Positions 13,480 through 31,317 of a stretch of DNA of 34,718 nucleotides are shown here, one piece after another. Each line of letters opens with the position of its first letter. Positions within the stretch are counted from its first letter, which is position 1. The translations under genes were made by a program, and so were the position numbers. Location: IMG/VR virus record IMGVR_UViG_3300037327_000007, positions 1 through 34,718 of that record; one strand, written 5' to 3'. A model generated the notes under the pieces. That model saw nothing but the letters and a program-made list of their open reading frames with translations. It ran no database searches and was not told the DNA's origin. Source of the stretch: a virus (taxonomy: Duplodnaviria > Caudoviricetes).

Positions 13480-13941
13480 ATGAAATACGCCCGCATAGTT
13501 AACAGCACTGCGGTAGATACCCGCAGCGATTCGCCGTTAGGTTTTTACACCGAAAACATTGCCAATGAGTTTGTCGTAGTACCCGATGAGGTGCTTGACG
13601 GCTGGTCTAATGCAAGCGGCGCATGGCTAGCCCCAGTACCGCCACCAGAGCCAACAGTAGAGGAAATAGCAGCGCGTGAGGCGGCAGCAGCAGAATCGGC
13701 ACGGCTAGCAGCAGTACCGCGAGAGATAAGCCCTCGCCAAATACGGCAAGCACTTACCGCATTGGGATTGCGCGATCAAGTTGAAAGCGCAGTAGCTGCA
13801 AGTTCAACAGACATAAAAGACTGGTGGGAATTTTCTACTAGCGTTGAGCGCGATAATGAGCACGTCATAGGTATGGCTGCTAAGCTTGGCGTTACTGATC
13901 GACAGCTTGACGACTTATTCACTTTAGCCGGAACCCTTTAA
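13480..13941 (+). CDS. putative tail fibre assembly/chaperone-like protein
   Basis: follows the Gly-rich gene; ISPRQ.R.AL...GL...V...W.....R....LG.T..QLD.LF pattern. Confidence 0.65.
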   Translation: MKYARIVNSTAVDTRSDSPLGFYTENIANEFVVVPDEVLDGWSNASGAWLAPVPPPEPTVEEIAAREAAAAESARLAAVPREISPRQIRQALTALGLRDQVESAVAASSTDIKDWWEFSTSVERDNEHVIGMAAKLGVTDRQLDDLFTLAGTL

Positions 13942-15707
13942 TGCTCTCAACAATTCAAAAGTGCGGTAATGGCGTTAATAAAGATTTACTGCCTTCTGAA
14001 TTACTGCCGGGCCAATGGAGTGATGCGCTTAATATTCGCTTTCGTAATGACTTTGCGGAAAAGTTTAAAGGCATAAAGGCGGCTTATGCAGTGCCAGCAG
14101 TCGTTCCTTACTATATTGATTTATACACGGCCAATAGTTCGCGCTTTATTATTGAAGCGAGCACGGCTAAAGTATTTTGTGATGACGGTGTAACGGCTAC
14201 CGATATTACGCGTTTTGGTGAAGGCTTACCGATAAACTCAATAACCTTTGCTACGACTACGGCAACGCTCACAACGGGCAGGCCGCACGGTTTGACAACT
14301 GGCGCAACGGTGATTGTTTACTTAGCCTTTCCAGCCGTCTACAACGGTACTTTCGTCATTACAGTTACCAGCACAACAGCATTCACTTACGCGCTGCCTA
14401 GCACGCCTGCAAGCGTTGCTACCACCCTTGGAGCATACTCAACCAACATTAATAGCGACTTTACCGGCGCTATAGATGATCGATGGACAGGCGGTGCGCT
14501 TAATGGGGTATTAATATTAAACAGCCCTACAGATGGTCTTCACTTTTGGTCTGGAACACCAGCGGATAAAGTTCGCAAAGTGCCAACTTCTACCAACATT
14601 GCCGACTCTGCGAGAATGTTTAAGAATTACATTGTCTCGCTTGGCACTACCGTATCTGGTGTCAAACGGCCTCACAATGTTGCTTGGTCAAGTGCGGCAG
14701 AGCCTGGCTCTATTCCTTCGTCGTTTACGTCCAATTTGGCTAACGATGCGGGTAATCAAGACTTGGCTGAAACCACTGGGGAGATGGTTGATAGCTTAAC
14801 GCTAGGTGACGTTAATATTATTTACAAGTCAGACGCACGCTATGCCATGCAGTATATCGGCGGAAACTTTGTTTTTAGGTTCCAGCGCTTACCCGGAAAC
14901 GATGGCTTGCTAGCCCGTGGTTGTGTAGTTAATACACCTAAGGGGCACGTATTCCTAACCAATGGTGATGTCAAGATTCACAACGGCGGCGAGGCAAATA
15001 GCATATGTGACGGAAGAATCCGCAAATGGCTTTTTTCAACAATGGACAGCAATTTCGCACAAAGAAGTTTTTTAGCTTTAAATCCCCAAAAGAAAGAAGT
15101 TTGGGTAGTATTTCCTAGCTTTGCTCAAACAACATGCGACACAGCCGCTGTTTGGAATTGGGAAACGGACACTTGGGGCATTAGATCATTAAGTAATGTT
15201 ACTTATGCCGCGGCAGGCTTAATATCTGGAAACCTTGTTTTAGATACTTGGGTTTCAGATACTGACTCTTGGAATACTGACGCGTCTGCTTGGTTTGAGA
15301 ATGAATTCTCTCAAAATGAATCTAGAATGGTTATTTCAACGTCCACGCCTAGAATCGGATTAGTCGATACTGGTACGCTAGATTTTGGTGTAGCTTTTAG
15401 CTGGCTGTTAGAAAAACGCGGTATCCAGCTTGATGACTCGGATTCCGTTAAAACCCTATCTGCAAGCCGTCCACAATTTAGCGCATTACCCGGGACTGTT
15501 GTTTCAGTCTTTCACGGCTCTGCGCAAACTACTGACGGCACGCCTAACTATGCGCAGCCTGTAACTTACACTATTGGCACGTCCAATATGGCTAACAGGT
15601 TTGCAAGCGGTGGCCGCTACATGGCTTACAAGCTAACTAGCAGTGACCCGCAGCCGGTGACAATCCGCTCCTACGACTTAGATTACACAAAGCAAGGCAG
15701 ATTTTGA
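13941..15707 (+). CDS. tail nozzle / DNA stabilization protein (P22 gp10 / tail tubular B-like) with an inserted beta domain
   Basis: 588 aa; W....N.RF near the N-terminus, V.WS, IIYK, EVW..FP and YNW-like propeller motifs; position after the adaptor and fibre genes. Confidence 0.75.
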   Translation: MLSTIQKCGNGVNKDLLPSELLPGQWSDALNIRFRNDFAEKFKGIKAAYAVPAVVPYYIDLYTANSSRFIIEASTAKVFCDDGVTATDITRFGEGLPINSITFATTTATLTTGRPHGLTTGATVIVYLAFPAVYNGTFVITVTSTTAFTYALPSTPASVATTLGAYSTNINSDFTGAIDDRWTGGALNGVLILNSPTDGLHFWSGTPADKVRKVPTSTNIADSARMFKNYIVSLGTTVSGVKRPHNVAWSSAAEPGSIPSSFTSNLANDAGNQDLAETTGEMVDSLTLGDVNIIYKSDARYAMQYIGGNFVFRFQRLPGNDGLLARGCVVNTPKGHVFLTNGDVKIHNGGEANSICDGRIRKWLFSTMDSNFAQRSFLALNPQKKEVWVVFPSFAQTTCDTAAVWNWETDTWGIRSLSNVTYAAAGLISGNLVLDTWVSDTDSWNTDASAWFENEFSQNESRMVISTSTPRIGLVDTGTLDFGVAFSWLLEKRGIQLDDSDSVKTLSASRPQFSALPGTVVSVFHGSAQTTDGTPNYAQPVTYTIGTSNMANRFASGGRYMAYKLTSSDPQPVTIRSYDLDYTKQGRF

Positions 15708-15955
15708 GTACCTACCAACCCGGCTACGTGCCAGACGATACGTCCATGATGGCCAACTTCTTGCGCCAAGAACTTATCGGTATCAAGCAAGCGTTAGAGA
15801 CAGGCTCCGATGCGCTTTACTTAACAACTATATATGCCAGCCCCGTAAAAGTCAGGGAGGGCATGTTAATACTCGCAGACGGTACGCAATTTAATCCGGG
15901 CTCTGGCGGCGGTGTTTATGTATACCGCGCTGGTGCATTCAGGTTTCTAGGATGA
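15704..15955 (+). CDS. small virion-region protein
   Basis: TTG start overlapping the upstream stop; P.K.REGM..ADGT..NPGSG.G.Y.Y pattern. Confidence 0.7.
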   Translation: MSTYQPGYVPDDTSMMANFLRQELIGIKQALETGSDALYLTTIYASPVKVREGMLILADGTQFNPGSGGGVYVYRAGAFRFLG

Positions 15956-16782
15956 CAGAATTAAAACCAAAAGACAAAGTAATGCACTTGCAAGAAATGT
16001 TAAATAAAGTTCCGCAAGTTGATTGCCCTATAAAACATTATTTTGCACCTGGGGTATTTGCGCGTGAAATAACAATCCCAAAAGGCACTTGTTTAATTGG
16101 TGCTGTGCACAAAACAGATAACTTAGCAATACTGTCCAGCGGTCGCTTGCTGATTGTTGTAGATACTGGGACAATGGAGATGTCAGCCCCTTACGTTATA
16201 AATGTCAAAGCGGGACAAAAAAATGCAGCAGTGGCTTTAGAAACCTCGACTTGGACTAACTTCTTCCCTAACCCGGAAAATGAAACTGATATTGACGTTT
16301 TTATAGAACGTTTTACTGAATCAAAAGCCAGCGAGTTAATAGGTGGCGCAGACAATAAACAACTTAAAAGTAATCATATAACTAACGACCGAGAAGATTA
16401 CAAGCTTTTTTTGTCTGAATATGGTTTGTCAGAACCTATAGTTTTATTGCTTGTGCATAACGATAACGACCTTATAAACATTAATTTACCTAAAGTTGAA
16501 AAGTTTGACTCTTTAATTGAGGGTAAAGGTCTGAGAGCTTTAGCGGATATTAAAAATGGTGAATCAATAGGGCTTGCGAGATTATCAGGAAACCGCACGC
16601 AATTAGGTAGATTTTTAAACCATTCGGTAGAGCCCAATGTAAAATTCACATTATGCGAAAATAACGATTTAATGGCTTATTCAATTAAAGATATAAAACA
16701 TGGTGAAGAATTAACAAATTGTTACAGACAGGCCATGAGCGTAAACAACGCTGGCTTTTCTCCTTTGAAAGGTAAATTATGA
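15952..16782 (+). CDS. cupin-like domain fused to a C-terminal SET-domain protein-lysine methyltransferase
   Basis: N-terminal HYFAPGVFAREITIPKG...G.VHK cupin-like pattern; C-terminal SET motifs S.IEGKGL.A, RFLNHS..PN and I..GEELT..Y. Confidence 0.8.
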   Translation: MTELKPKDKVMHLQEMLNKVPQVDCPIKHYFAPGVFAREITIPKGTCLIGAVHKTDNLAILSSGRLLIVVDTGTMEMSAPYVINVKAGQKNAAVALETSTWTNFFPNPENETDIDVFIERFTESKASELIGGADNKQLKSNHITNDREDYKLFLSEYGLSEPIVLLLVHNDNDLININLPKVEKFDSLIEGKGLRALADIKNGESIGLARLSGNRTQLGRFLNHSVEPNVKFTLCENNDLMAYSIKDIKHGEELTNCYRQAMSVNNAGFSPLKGKL

Positions 16783-17399
16783 GCGCAGGATTATCAGCAG
16801 GTGCAATCGGTCTAATCGGTGCAGTAGCCCCCTCAGTCGTAGGCGGTATTTTAGGCGGCCAGTCTTCGGGTAATACCCAGACGTCACAGCAGTCGTTAGA
16901 CCCGCGTATGCAGGAAATACTGTACGGCAGCGGTGCAGATAAGGGCTTGCTCGGCGATGCTAACGCATTGCGTAAGCAGCAGTTAGCGCAAGGCGGTTTA
17001 AACGACACACAACGCGCCGGTCTTGAGATGCAGCGCCAAACACTTATGTCTCCACAGTACACGCAAGGCTATGACCAAATGCGTAATGCAGGCAGCCAAT
17101 TGCTTGGCGCTGGTGTAGCAGGCAATCCATTTAATAACGGCGGCAATGGCTCTATTGGCATGGGCAGTATGCCAAACAATCAAGCTGTTCGAAGCCAGCA
17201 AATGCCATTTATGCCAGCTTTTAGATACGATCAAAACTCAGCTATGCAGGGCGCTAATAACCCGATGGCTAAGCCTGAAGCGGTTACTCAGCCTATGGAG
17301 CAAGCAAATGAGCAAACCCCGTTGCAGCAATATATTGCTGATTTAGAGCGACAGCAAGCTATGCAAATGGCGGAAGCTAATCGCGGCACATCTTCTTAA
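16779..17399 (+). CDS. putative DNA ejection/pilot protein 1
   Basis: hydrophobic Gly/Ala-rich N-terminus then Gln/Met-rich body; position matches P22 gp7-like genes. Confidence 0.6.
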   Translation: MSAGLSAGAIGLIGAVAPSVVGGILGGQSSGNTQTSQQSLDPRMQEILYGSGADKGLLGDANALRKQQLAQGGLNDTQRAGLEMQRQTLMSPQYTQGYDQMRNAGSQLLGAGVAGNPFNNGGNGSIGMGSMPNNQAVRSQQMPFMPAFRYDQNSAMQGANNPMAKPEAVTQPMEQANEQTPLQQYIADLERQQAMQMAEANRGTSS

Positions 17400-17409
17400 A
17401 GGTAAAAAA

Positions 17410-18471
17410 ATGGCTACGTTTCAAGAACAAGCACAGCAGCTTTACCAAAACAATTTGGGCCGGCAGGGCGACGCTGAAGGCGTTAATTACTTTGCTAATC
17501 AATTAGCTAGTGGCGCTAGCCCTGAGTCTGTCCAGAAATTATTTCAAGGCTCTGCTAAAAGTGTTTATCAAGACTATCTCAGCAACCCAAATAGTGCCAA
17601 CTCGAAAAACCCTGAAATATCGGCGCTATTAAATAGCGACTTGCAAAGTGGTATTGCTCCCCCAGGCACTCAAACAGGCTCAGCGCAATCAAATGCACAA
17701 CAGTCTTTAAATCCAAATATATACAAAAACTTGTATGGCGGCAACACTCCTGCTCCAATGCAGCCTGCTCCAATGCAAAATTTTGAAGAAGACACCAATG
17801 CACAGAATGCTAGGTTGTCTCAGTATCAAGGCAACCCATACTTAGACAATATTGCTAACGATGTGCAGCGCAGGTCAGGCCAAGCGCTTGATTTAGGCTT
17901 GCAGGGCATTCGCAGTAACGCGGTGGGCATTGGTGGTCTAGGCGGCTCACGTCAAGGTGTTGCGGAGGGTTTAGCAATTGGACAAGCTAACGACAACTTG
18001 TCCGGCAACTTGTCAAATTTATATGGCCAAGATTTCACCAATAGTCAAAACCGCAACTTACAAAAGTACGGCATTGATACGAATGCAGATCTTACAAGAC
18101 AAGGCCAGCAACAGAATTTCTATACTGCAAACCGTGGCTTAGATCAACAGGGTTTGCAAATTGGCGCTAACCTTTTTAATCAGGGAAATCAGGGTAGGAT
18201 TAATCAGGGTCAAGGCATTTACGGAATAGGTAACACCGAACAGCAAGCCCCGTTTAACGTTTTCAATAACGCTAACCAAACAATCAGCCCCTACGCTGGT
18301 GCAGGCTCTAGCAACACATCCAGCAGCTCACAAGGAGGCGGTTTAAGCGGCATAGCAGGCGGTGCTTTTGCAGGCGCACAGATAGGCCGCAACTTAGGCT
18401 TTGGCGGTGGCTCAGACCCTTACAATGTGGGTCAAGGCTCATCGTATAACGGCAATTATTCAAGGATGTAA
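17410..18471 (+). CDS. putative DNA ejection protein 2 with an N-terminal DUF4214-like helix bundle
   Basis: LYQNNLGRQGDAEGVNYF at the N-terminus; NPYL and GGSRQG motifs; Gln/Asn/Gly-rich. Confidence 0.65.
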   Translation: MATFQEQAQQLYQNNLGRQGDAEGVNYFANQLASGASPESVQKLFQGSAKSVYQDYLSNPNSANSKNPEISALLNSDLQSGIAPPGTQTGSAQSNAQQSLNPNIYKNLYGGNTPAPMQPAPMQNFEEDTNAQNARLSQYQGNPYLDNIANDVQRRSGQALDLGLQGIRSNAVGIGGLGGSRQGVAEGLAIGQANDNLSGNLSNLYGQDFTNSQNRNLQKYGIDTNADLTRQGQQQNFYTANRGLDQQGLQIGANLFNQGNQGRINQGQGIYGIGNTEQQAPFNVFNNANQTISPYAGAGSSNTSSSSQGGGLSGIAGGAFAGAQIGRNLGFGGGSDPYNVGQGSSYNGNYSRM

Positions 18472-24843: not shown

Positions 24844-25335
24844 TTACAAAATAACATCTGTAATTTTTCTTTTACCCGACAAAATCGCATGAATTCTACG
24901 CTCGGTAAGTCTGTGGCAGCGGTACATTACACGAGCGGGTAAAGCATTTAGAAGGTCAGAATATGAAGCCAGCACCTCACGCACCGCCTCCATGCCAGGG
25001 CCGTCTAAGCGTATCTGTTTGCCCTCTTGTTTTTTACGTTGTCCAGCTTCGCCCAAAGCCCTGACAGCCTCTTTTAAAGTTCCGTTTTGGTCTTCACAAA
25101 TAGCCATTTCGATAACCATCGTCTCAAGCATATTCACCGCATCTGACACAACAGACCAGTCGTCTGGTGTAGGGTTATCTCCATGCGCCATTGCCTCTAG
25201 GCCGCCATACATGCGCGTTAACTGGTGACGCCTATACTCGGCTGGCATTGGCTCTGTCGGGCTTGCCATCATCTCATCAAGAAGCGTGTATGTCCTGCGG
25301 TTTTTATGCTGTGATTTCTTGCGAACTGTTTTCAT
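24844..25335 (-). CDS. hypothetical phage protein (163 aa)
   Basis: start abuts the methyltransferase stop; helical-looking, DW..VSDAVN..E motif. Confidence 0.75.
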   Translation of the reverse strand: MKTVRKKSQHKNRRTYTLLDEMMASPTEPMPAEYRRHQLTRMYGGLEAMAHGDNPTPDDWSVVSDAVNMLETMVIEMAICEDQNGTLKEAVRALGEAGQRKKQEGKQIRLDGPGMEAVREVLASYSDLLNALPARVMYRCHRLTERRIHAILSGKRKITDVIL

Positions 25336-26141
25336 TTATTTACCTCCAAGGAGTTTCCACGCTGTTGCCGCTTGTAATGGGCACTGAGCGTTACCCAATC
25401 CCTTAAGACGGTGAACCCTATTGGGAACCCCATTAGCCACTCGACCCACGTCGGATTCAACATCCCAGAAGTTGGGTGAACAACCATGCTCAAGTTCAAT
25501 TGTTTCCCAATTTCTTTTCTGCGTTGAATGCTCGGGTTCGACATGTTTCCTCTGTCTCTGTGATCGCTCGCATTCGGTGTCGGCCACAAGTGCATGTTCG
25601 TTGCTTGATCTCTTAAATTCGCTGCGTCCAACGTGTTTGGCGTTGCAAAGCGCGAACCACCTATCTCGGTGATGCGGCGCTCCGACATCGGATGCGCGAA
25701 TGCAGAGCCACCTGCAGTCATACCCCAGCTTGGCCAAGTCCCCGAGTACGATTCCCAATCCGTTACTAAGGATTGCTGATACGTTTTCCAAGAACAACTG
25801 CTTTGGTCGTACCACGCCAGCGATGCGCAGGACTTCTCGGTAAAGACCTGATCTGGTTCCTTCATGTACACCTGATTGCTTTCCAGCGACGCTAATGTCC
25901 TGACAAGGAAATCCTGCATGGATGATGTCCACGACTCCGGCGTATTCGGATGGATCAAACAAGGTGACGTCCCCTTCATGCACTCGCAGTCCGGGAAACC
26001 ACCCATCATAGGCTCGCTCTCTAAGGACTTGGCAGGCATATCTATCCCACTCAACAGCGACAACTGGTCTGTGGCCGAGAATAAGGTCTGCAAGGAGTCC
26101 ACCTCCGTGACCTGCAAAAAGGTGCATTGTCCTGATTTCAT
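25332..26141 (-). CDS. overlapping alternative-frame polypeptide, putative methyltransferase beta subunit carrying motif IX and target-recognition elements
   Basis: 269 open codons overlapping the methyltransferase gene; FATP and WPTP..SD repeats and LNPTWVEWLMGFP.GFT (motif IX-like); true start may be internal. Confidence 0.65.
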   Translation of the reverse strand: MKSGQCTFLQVTEVDSLQTLFSATDQLSLLSGIDMPAKSLESEPMMGGFPDCECMKGTSPCLIHPNTPESWTSSMQDFLVRTLASLESNQVYMKEPDQVFTEKSCASLAWYDQSSCSWKTYQQSLVTDWESYSGTWPSWGMTAGGSAFAHPMSERRITEIGGSRFATPNTLDAANLRDQATNMHLWPTPNASDHRDRGNMSNPSIQRRKEIGKQLNLSMVVHPTSGMLNPTWVEWLMGFPIGFTVLRDWVTLSAHYKRQQRGNSLEVNK

Positions 26142-26145
26142 TCAT
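25336..26145 (-). CDS. DNA (cytosine-5) methyltransferase, catalytic (alpha) polypeptide lacking a clear motif IX
   Basis: motif I LFAG.GG, IV GFPCQD.S.AG, VI LENV, VIII PH.R.RWF, X RLKGLGNA. Confidence 0.92.
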   Translation of the reverse strand: MNEIRTMHLFAGHGGGLLADLILGHRPVVAVEWDRYACQVLRERAYDGWFPGLRVHEGDVTLFDPSEYAGVVDIIHAGFPCQDISVAGKQSGVHEGTRSGLYREVLRIAGVVRPKQLFLENVSAILSNGLGIVLGDLAKLGYDCRWLCIRASDVGAPHHRDRWFALCNAKHVGRSEFKRSSNEHALVADTECERSQRQRKHVEPEHSTQKRNWETIELEHGCSPNFWDVESDVGRVANGVPNRVHRLKGLGNAQCPLQAATAWKLLGGK

Positions 26146-30943: not shown

Positions 30944-31317
30944 TGTTTATTTTCCTATCGAATATTGTTGACTTTCGTAATCTTTGCAATGTAAGCAAAA
31001 CCCACAATTATCACAATCTTCGCAATATGAGCAACCTTGGCAAACTTCGCAACCTTCGCAACCTAAGCAATTATCACAAGCTTCACAATCTTTACAACTT
31101 TTGCAATCTGTGCAATCTAGACATAATTCGCAACCTACGCAAATTATGCAACCTATGCAATTTGTGCAATCTGTGCAATCTTTACAACCAACGCAGTAAA
31201 AGTTATTACCCTCGTCCATTTTCATAGCTTGGTTATCAGCAGCTTCTTGCGATATTTTTGAAGTACCTACATTTCCGTTCTTTGTTTTTTCGCTTGTAAA
31301 CATTGTTTATTTTCCTA
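30941..31317. repeat. 17-bp perfect direct repeats (30941-30957 and 31301-31317) flanking the Cys-rich gene
   Basis: cattgtttattttccta occurs twice (minus strand TAGGAAAATAAACAATG). Confidence 0.9.
30947..31303 (-). CDS. Cys-rich (Cxx)24 repeat protein
   Basis: 24 Cys at exact 3-residue spacing; TAGGA RBS. Confidence 0.75.
   Translation of the reverse strand: MFTSEKTKNGNVGTSKISQEAADNQAMKMDEGNNFYCVGCKDCTDCTNCIGCIICVGCELCLDCTDCKSCKDCEACDNCLGCEGCEVCQGCSYCEDCDNCGFCLHCKDYESQQYSIGK

What the first reader, a model, noticed from the sequence alone, without database searches (positions are those of the whole stretch)
15952..16782. SET-domain lysine methyltransferase fused to a cupin inside the virion/DNA-ejection operon
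Seen: residues about 184-258 carry the three SET signature motifs in order: S-x-I-E-G-K-G-L (GKG at nt 16522-16530), R-F-L-N-H-S-x-x-P-N (from 16609) and G-E-E-L-T-x-x-Y (Tyr at 16723-16725). They follow a cupin-like domain. The gene is translationally coupled between the tail nozzle region and the first ejection gene, and the SET half is visibly more AT-rich than its neighbours. Known: SET domains are SAM-dependent protein-lysine methyltransferases of eukaryotes, chlorovirus vSET and some bacterial effectors; related podoviruses often carry a GNAT acetyltransferase-like gene at this position. Inference: this phage may use lysine methylation to modify its own virion/ejection proteins or a host protein, giving an uncharacterised phage protein-modification system.
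Basis: partly seen in the sequence, partly recalled or inferred. Interest (0 to 1): 0.8.

Follow-up and report, generated by a model that had tools for sequence, protein, structure and literature searches.

The report
Phage cupin-SET enzyme tracks ejection-protein start
A short-tailed phage carries a small barrel (cupin) domain fused to a stripped-down SET-type methyltransferase fold, directly in front of the genes for proteins it likely injects into its host; across related phages this fusion goes with small amino acids at the start of the next protein, so it likely methylates that protein's tip during particle assembly, which has not been tested.

Summary
Confirmed. The 276-aa gene joins a cupin (PHA00672-type) to a SET domain (Pfam E=1.5e-11; fold matches EZH2/SET8). 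All three motifs sit at the stated coordinates and are invariant in 100 of 100 aligned SET halves. The SET is minimal, about 35 residues shorter than MLL1 between motifs.

The family is large (248 clusters) and occurs as cupin-SET, SET-cupin, cupin alone and SET alone. It sits almost always directly before the first ejection gene, the slot of T7 gp13 and P22 gp14.

New here: a near-identical sister phage has the cupin only, and the next protein's third residue tracks the architecture. It is small (G/A/S) in 144 of 148 cupin-SET loci and bulky in 83 of 85 cupin-only loci. Best reading: methylation of that protein's N-terminal Ser during assembly (0.42).

Against: 12 of 15 SET-cupin loci break the rule, hitch-hiking is not excluded, and independent contrasts are not significant (p=0.125). 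No activity or binding was tested.

The scan found this family before on other DNA (8 notes listed). I found no paper on it.

The parts
15952..16782 (+). Cupin-SET fusion gene, 276 aa, ATGA overlaps at both ends
   Evidence: PHROG 34170 over residues 14-263, E=9e-43
16012..16275 (+). Cupin barrel (aa 21-108), PHA00672 / PHROG 12032 family; Arg38 invariant, canonical metal-ligand positions variable
   Evidence: VIA Z 11.5 to 5j4f; conservation over 172 cupins; PHA00672 label on related genes in GenBank records
16276..16371 (+). Cupin C-terminal helices with the ELxGGxxNxQL motif, where cupin-only relatives end
16387..16479 (+). Helical extension (aa 146-176) that travels with the SET module in both fusion orders and in stand-alone SET genes
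16480..16731 (+). Minimal SET core (aa 177-260) lacking most of the i-SET insert
16522..16530 (+). SET motif GxG (G191-K-G193)
   Evidence: G193 invariant in 100 of 100
16609..16638 (+). SET motif RFLNHSxxPN (N223, H224, N229)
   Evidence: invariant in 100 of 100
16702..16725 (+). SET motif GEELTxxY (E253, Y258)
   Evidence: invariant in 100 of 100
16282..16811 (+). Approximate segment that differs from the cupin-only sister phage L002: cupin tail, SET half and first 11 codons of the next gene
   Evidence: Identity to L002 is 97% over nt 1-300 of the gene and 66% over nt 330-420; in the next gene it is 70% over the first 33 nt, then 95%
16779..17399 (+). 206-aa gene starting M-S-A-G with a Gly/Ala-rich hydrophobic N-terminal peptide; likely the first ejection protein and the candidate substrate
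   Evidence: No family hit. It matches the N-terminal part of a 485-aa protein whose middle matches the window's 353-aa gene. The same slot holds PHROG 598 or T7_gp14 proteins in relatives.
17410..18471 (+). 353-aa DNA ejection protein
   Evidence: PHROG 4287, E=3e-9
15704..15955 (+). 83-aa upstream gene, conserved after the tail-hub gene in relatives
   Evidence: no family hit
13941..15707 (+). 588-aa virion structural protein, likely tail hub/nozzle; used as anchor for a slot survey independent of the cupin
   Evidence: PHROG 3287, E=4e-94

Best explanation
The gene encodes a cupin fused to a minimal SET-fold domain that is predicted to be a SAM-dependent methyltransferase and that likely acts during particle assembly on the free N-terminus of the protein encoded right after it, likely the first ejection protein. 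Inferred steps: (1) both proteins are made together from overlapping late genes; (2) the host removes Met1, exposing Ser-Ala-Gly; (3) the cupin half, the constant partner in this slot, holds the hydrophobic N-terminal peptide as a binding module rather than a metal enzyme; (4) the SET half, lacking the i-SET insert, accepts the small-residue N-terminus and methylates it, most likely on the alpha-amine because no lysine is near; (5) the methyl cap would stand in for the aromatic residue that relatives without a transferase encode at position 2 or 3, helping the protein to be packaged, protected or inserted into the host membrane. Shown: fold, motifs, synteny and covariation. Not shown: binding, catalysis, substrate and purpose.
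For: SET motifs are invariant in 64 of 64 fusions and 100 of 100 SET halves. Slot: the gene at +1 fell in one cluster in 87 of 120 loci, whose representative is PHROG 598 'DNA ejection'. In phiAp1 the cupin sits between tail tubular B and a T7_gp14 homolog, where T7 has gp13. Covariation (272 dereplicated loci): residue 3 of the next gene is G/A/S in 144 of 148 cupin-SET loci (17 more had no call) and bulky in 83 of 85 cupin-only loci (3 had no call; one start set to the GenBank start). Residue 2 is Ser in 90 of 94 cupin-SET but 37 of 65 cupin-only rows. Among peptides with Gly at position 4, cupin-only loci are bulky in 54 of 55 and cupin-SET loci small in 10 of 10. Gene overlap does not explain it: with an ATGA overlap, 16 of 16 cupin-only loci are bulky and 33 of 34 cupin-SET loci are small. 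Sister pair: window MSAG against L002 MAFG, with cupins 94% identical. Tail-hub-anchored survey (44 of 59 distinct loci classified by hand): cupin 15 of 15 bulky at position 3; cupin-SET 3 of 3 small; empty slot 15 of 16 with F/W at position 2 or 3; GNAT-like slot gene 0 of 9 with an aromatic residue there. BPP-1, one of two cupin-only exceptions, has an adjacent GNAT.
Against: SET-cupin loci have a bulky residue 3 in 12 of 15, and loci with a separate SET gene in 3 of 3. Their SET motifs are intact, and none of them (0 of 12, 0 of 3) has another MS[GAS] peptide gene in the DNA fetched. This is the pattern expected if the SET 3' end and the first codons of the next gene simply travel together; the window/L002 swap covers exactly that segment. 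Only 5 independent pairs lie on well-supported branches, median p=0.125. L098 has a cupin alone with MSAG and no recognisable transferase in its 5.8 kb. T7 pairs gp13 with a gp14 that starts MCW. The slot can be empty, so the step is not universal. The window's 206-aa protein has no ejection-family hit. Alpha-amine methylation by a SET domain is not established by any paper I read.
Confidence: 0.42

Rival explanations
1. The SET half methylates a lysine on an ejection or other virion protein during assembly; the N-terminal pattern is hitch-hiking or a side constraint.
For: Canonical lysine-methyltransferase motifs, with the closest solved folds being histone KMTs. Intact SETs occur beside bulky N-termini. 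53 of 94 cupin-SET partner proteins have a Lys within 30 residues. Mature P22 gp7 begins Lys-Gly-Gly-Lys-Gly (PMC8402733, passages).
Against: No conserved lysine position: the first Lys ranges from residue 17 to 415 and is residue 55 in the window. Residue 3 stays small across distantly related cupin-SET loci while positions 8-14 drift.
Confidence: 0.25
2. The SET half methylates a host protein, either in late infection or after being carried in with the ejection proteins, as chlorovirus vSET and bacterial SET effectors do.
For: The module is optional and mobile, as accessory genes are. It is also embedded in two much longer proteins, P0326 (548 aa) and P0362 (1549 aa).
Against: It stays in one morphogenesis slot in nearly all phage loci examined and covaries with a phage protein. 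The two long proteins were not shown to be ejection proteins.
Confidence: 0.13
3. Both halves act as a non-catalytic chaperone that shields the hydrophobic N-terminal peptide until packaging; SAM, if bound, is structural.
For: The cupin's canonical metal positions (51, 53, 57, 91) are all variable. The SET lacks most of the i-SET insert. T7 gp14 is water-insoluble alone (PMC8954989, passages).
Against: N223, H224, N229, E253 and Y258 are invariant in 100 of 100 diverse members, which fits a working active site.
Confidence: 0.12
4. The SET half methylates a small molecule, as BurB does with free methionine, and the cupin processes or binds the product.
For: BurB is a small bacterial SET protein acting on free Met (PMC12542666) and appears in the fold search (Z 7.8, rmsd 2.6, 81 aligned). 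R215 and T216 are nearly invariant and could hold a carboxylate (inference).
Against: BurB ranks below the histone enzymes. There are no metabolic neighbours, the gene is locked into the virion operon, and this reading does not explain the covariation.
Confidence: 0.08

Closest known systems
Chlorovirus PBCV-1 vSET (A612L; PDB 1n3j, 3kma)
   Same: Small viral SET; same C-terminal motifs (profile E=2e-7; Foldseek E=3.3e-6)
   Different: vSET methylates histone H3K27 of a eukaryotic host (PDB molecule names). The phage domain has only 30 residues between the GxG and NH motifs in 99 of 100 members, its own helical extension, a cupin partner and a bacterial host.
Histone KMT SET domains MLL1, EZH2, SET8
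   Same: Best structural and profile matches (Z about 10, rmsd 2.0-2.4 A; MLL1 E=7e-12)
   Different: About 35 residues of the insert are missing (7 profile positions against 42 in MLL1); no pre- or post-SET zinc modules.
BurB Met S-methyltransferase (PDB 9l4t; PMC12542666)
   Same: Small bacterial SET fold with a non-lysine substrate (Z 7.8)
   Different: Acts on free methionine in DMSP synthesis; no such context here.
T7 gp13 (PF11090) and P22 gp14 (DUF2824)
   Same: Same gene slot, between tail genes and the first ejection gene; a slot protein from a relative of this phage resembles both families and GNATs
   Different: Unrelated fold. Their GNAT-like nature is recalled and supported here only by ESM Atlas look-alikes, and their substrates are not given in the passages I read.
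PHA00672 / PHROG 12032 and 24280 ('short tail fiber', 'tail fiber adhesin')
   Same: The N-terminal half belongs to this family (E=6e-41; BPP-1 Bbp23, phiAp1 gp43)
   Different: The model is a compact cupin barrel, not a fibre, so the database label looks wrong.

Membership tests
SET domain superfamily | Pfam SET profile above the curated cut-off | tested here: met
   45.1 bits against 22.4
SET domain superfamily | SET beta-fold | tested here: met
   Model pLDDT 92.5; the top 50 VIA rows are SET/PR-domain entries, best Z 10.2, rmsd 2.2, 84 aligned. The pseudoknot itself was not inspected atom by atom.
SET domain superfamily | GxG, NHxxxxN and E-x(4)-Y motifs | tested here: met
   invariant in 100 of 100
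SET protein-lysine methyltransferases | Full i-SET insert forming the peptide groove | tested here: not met
   About 35 residues shorter than MLL1; 83 model residues span 125 of SET8
SET protein-lysine methyltransferases | SAM binding and methyl transfer | not testable with these tools
   needs assay
SET protein-lysine methyltransferases | Lysine epsilon-amine as acceptor | not testable with these tools
   No conserved Lys in the candidate substrate
Cupin superfamily | Double-stranded beta-helix barrel | tested here: met
   Foldseek E=6e-7; VIA Z 11.5
Metal-dependent cupin enzymes | His-x-His...Glu...His metal ligands | tested here: not met
   The equivalent positions, placed by motif spacing (inference), are A51, H53, N57 and N91 in the window, and none is invariant in 172 members
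Short tail fibre (PHROG 12032 label) | Elongated fibre fold | tested here: not met
   The model is a compact cupin barrel
T7 gp13 / P22 gp14 slot proteins | Position directly before the first ejection gene | tested here: met
T7 gp13 / P22 gp14 slot proteins | Sequence family PF11090 or PF11039 | tested here: not met
   No such Pfam hit for the window protein at E<=0.1

The most novel reading that the evidence does not exclude
Short-tailed phages use an N-terminal code on their first ejection protein. Either an aromatic residue is encoded at position 2 or 3, or a small-residue N-terminus is capped by an interchangeable transferase from the gene slot just upstream: a GNAT acyltransferase or this minimal SET acting as an N-alpha methyltransferase. 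That would give SET domains a new chemistry in bacterial viruses and suggest a function for the long-unexplained T7 gp13 / P22 gp14 slot.
Probability: 0.3. Interest if true: 0.85.

Novelty: new variant of a known kind. Interest (0 to 1): 0.6.

Why it matters
How ejection proteins are selected, packaged and inserted into the host envelope is still open (PMC8402733, PMC8954989, passages). The gene slot before the first ejection gene holds poorly understood proteins in model phages. This family gives a direct, cheap test: look for a methylated N-terminus in virions of two cultured phages that carry the fusion (Rhodoferax phage P26218, Pseudoalteromonas phage PH1). If true, a widespread phage family modifies its own injection machinery with an enzyme type known mainly from chromatin, and the 'short tail fiber' label on its cupin relatives should be dropped.

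Tried and rejected

Scans anchored on alignments of ejection proteins or P22 gp10-like hubs could not be run for lack of conserved words. The unbiased slot survey therefore rests on the SU10-like hub alone.

Rejected: the 'short tail fibre' label (fold); a canonical metal cupin enzyme; gene overlap as the cause of the covariation; active-site differences explaining the SET-cupin exceptions, since none was found; a second MS[GAS] substrate gene in those loci, since none was found; the cupin clade as the determinant of residue 3, since the window and L002 cupins are 94% identical yet differ.

The naive Fisher test (p=6e-38) is not used because the rows are related.

Nine slot proteins were labelled GNAT-like by eye. 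They have no GNAT-family Pfam hit and no PHROG hit. Only two such proteins were checked in the ESM Atlas, one of them among the nine.

P0362 shows no significant match to the window's 568-aa protein.

No proteomics of cultured carriers was found in PMC4657236, PMC3558961 or PMC5658483.

Full report
Observation. The window is a complete 34,718-base virus record with direct terminal repeats, with SU10-type portal, capsid and adaptor genes. The ORF at 15952-16782 encodes 276 aa. Pfam SET scores 45.1 bits against a cut-off of 22.4. PHROG 34170 (unknown function) covers residues 14-263, and PHROG 12032 ('short tail fiber') covers the N-terminal half. GC is 0.336 in the SET half against 0.455 for the genome, lower than any of 2015 windows elsewhere in 1289-23085; the cupin half is also low (0.388).

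Structure. AlphaFold2 on a 64-sequence alignment gave pLDDT 90.4. Residues 21-108 match small cupins (Foldseek E=6e-7; VIA Z 11.5, rmsd 2.0 A, 86 aligned), so the fibre label does not fit. The SET half folded alone (pLDDT 92.5) matches EZH2, SET8 and MLL1 at Z about 10 and vSET at Foldseek E=3.3e-6. It is a minimal SET: 7 profile positions span 42 residues of MLL1, and 99 of 100 members have 30 residues between the GxG and NH motifs. S187, G193, G219, N223, H224, N229, E253 and Y258 are invariant in 100 of 100 aligned SET halves. In the cupin, R38 and G64 are invariant over 172 members, while the positions that carry metal ligands in cupin enzymes (placed by motif spacing, my inference) all vary.

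Family. Of 212 proteins from two homolog searches, 123 are cupin alone, 66 cupin-SET and 23 SET-cupin. Fusion in both orders argues for a shared job. A profile of the SET half finds 248 clusters (50% identity) at E<=1e-30; of the best 150, 102 are cupin-SET, 7 SET-cupin and 41 SET without a cupin, some probably fragments. Cultured carriers of the fusion are Rhodoferax phage P26218 and Pseudoalteromonas phage PH1; cupin-only relatives include phiAp1, RSK1, BPP-1 and many vibriophages.

Gene slot. In 120 loci the gene at +1 fell in one cluster 87 times (the greedy gene picker sometimes chose antisense frames, so this is a floor), and its representative is PHROG 598 'DNA ejection'. In phiAp1 the cupin lies between tail tubular B and a T7_gp14 homolog, the place of T7 gp13; P22 has gp14 in the same place before gp7. 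BPP-1 has the cupin next to a Pfam GNAT. A survey anchored on the upstream hub gene, not on the cupin (59 distinct loci printed, 44 classified by hand, 15 truncated or unresolved), found cupin 15, cupin-SET 3, AspH plus a short cupin 1, empty 16 and small GNAT-like genes 9. The GNAT label is weak: no GNAT-family Pfam hit and no PHROG hit for those nine, but two tested proteins resemble GNAT, DUF2824 and T7 Gp13 clusters in the ESM Atlas. The window's own next gene (206 aa) has no family hit. It matches the N-terminal part of a 485-aa relative whose middle matches the window's 353-aa PHROG 4287 gene, so it is likely the front part of a split ejection gene.

Near-isogenic pair. L002 has the same flanking genes and a 147-aa cupin without SET. 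DNA identity is 97% over the first 300 nt of the gene, 66% over nt 330-420, 70% over the first 33 nt of the next gene, then 95%. In a tree of 172 cupins the window and L001 sit with L002 (support 98) inside a 41-row clade (99) in which all other rows are cupin-only. This suggests a recent gain of the SET half by recombination, though the tree is unrooted.

Covariation, the new result. Among 272 dereplicated loci, the next gene was called by a filter for a Gly/Ala-rich, low-charge start. Its third residue is G/A/S in 144 of 148 cupin-SET loci (17 uncalled) and bulky in 83 of 85 cupin-only loci (3 uncalled). After clustering at 85% the counts are 91 of 94 and 63 of 65. Residue 2 is Ser in 90 of 94 cupin-SET rows. 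The pattern holds within one peptide type (Gly at position 4: 54 of 55 bulky against 10 of 10 small) and within each overlap class. In the hub-anchored survey, empty-slot phages have F or W at position 2 or 3 in 15 of 16, and GNAT-like slot phages in 0 of 9.

Results against. SET-cupin loci are bulky in 12 of 15 and separate-SET loci in 3 of 3, with intact motifs and no alternative MS[GAS] gene nearby. Only in the cupin-SET order does the SET abut the next gene's start, so hitch-hiking predicts this split. The tree gives 11 changes of architecture but only 5 well-supported independent pairs; on average 3.5 go the predicted way and 0.0 the other, median p=0.125. L098 and T7, whose gp14 starts MCW, are exceptions. 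What argues for selection over linkage alone is that residue 3 stays small across distant cupin-SET loci while nearby positions drift.

Mechanism. I commit to methylation of the first ejection protein's N-terminus during assembly (0.42). Met removal before a small second residue is established knowledge (recalled). Small residues would let the backbone amine reach an active site built for a lysine side chain, and the window's protein has no lysine before residue 55; both steps are inference. A SET fold can take a non-lysine acceptor: BurB methylates free methionine (PMC12542666, passages). N-termini of ejection proteins are processed and matter for packaging in P22, where mature gp7 begins Lys-Gly-Gly-Lys-Gly after cleavage, although deleting its first 20 residues has little effect (PMC8402733, passages). 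T7 gp14 is the first ejected protein and forms an outer-membrane pore (PMC8954989, passages). Rivals are lysine methylation of a virion protein (0.25), a host target (0.13), a non-catalytic chaperone (0.12) and a small-molecule substrate (0.08).

Literature and earlier notes. Ten full-text searches listed no paper on a phage cupin-SET protein or on modification of ejection-protein N-termini; I judged most from the listings only. The P26218 genome paper has no 'methyltransferase' or 'cupin' in its main text. I saw passages of PMC9728967, PMC4283147 and PMC3558961 and the whole text of PMC5658483. No supplements were read, and virion proteomics tables there or in subscription journals could bear on whether the protein is a virion part. 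Databases already label members 'SET domain'.

Verdict. A real, widespread and apparently unstudied variant of the SET superfamily, not a proven lysine methyltransferase. It now has a specific, testable substrate prediction. Interest 0.6.

Noticed in passing
window 25336-26145 (-) and 25332-26141 (-): Two 269-codon ORFs overlap almost fully on one strand in different frames. One is a C-5 cytosine DNA methylase matching Pfam positions 2-213 of 324; the other has no Pfam hit. It may encode the missing part, as in two-subunit methylases with overlapping frames (recalled).
   Followed up: partly
window 30947-31303 (-): 118-aa ORF with many CxxC repeats and no Pfam hit.
   Followed up: partly
window 16779-18471: The first ejection gene looks split in two (206 aa and 353 aa). 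In several relatives the PHROG 4287-like part lies upstream of the cupin and the peptide-bearing part downstream, so the cupin follows the peptide.
   Followed up: partly
L144:2575-4762: BPP-1-like layout before the portal: cupin, a small protein starting MSMG, two more genes, then a stand-alone SET gene. The gene just before the SET has an N-terminal leader followed by a glycine run, reminiscent of the cleaved P22 gp7 leader.
   Followed up: no
L300:4563-6131 and L442:6820-7733: A SET gene beside a gene that looks like an Asp/Asn beta-hydroxylase in a Variovorax genome (by eye), and a Pfam-confirmed one plus a short cupin in the ejection slot of a phage: more protein-modifying enzymes in this context.
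   Followed up: partly
P0326, P0362, P0239: The mini-SET module is embedded inside 548-aa and 1549-aa proteins of unknown function, and a cupin-SET is fused behind an unidentified 280-aa domain.
   Followed up: partly
L331:2878-3578 (Alteromonas phage H4/4) and L005:8483-9813 (BPP-1): Here the cupin lies before the portal gene, not before the main ejection genes, yet is again followed by a small protein with the same kind of Gly/Ala-rich N-terminal peptide.
   Followed up: partly
L289:4956-5570, L298:4986-5543, L254:1468-2157: Stand-alone mini-SET genes with a distinct C-terminal extension, two of them in betaproteobacterial genome records.
   Followed up: no
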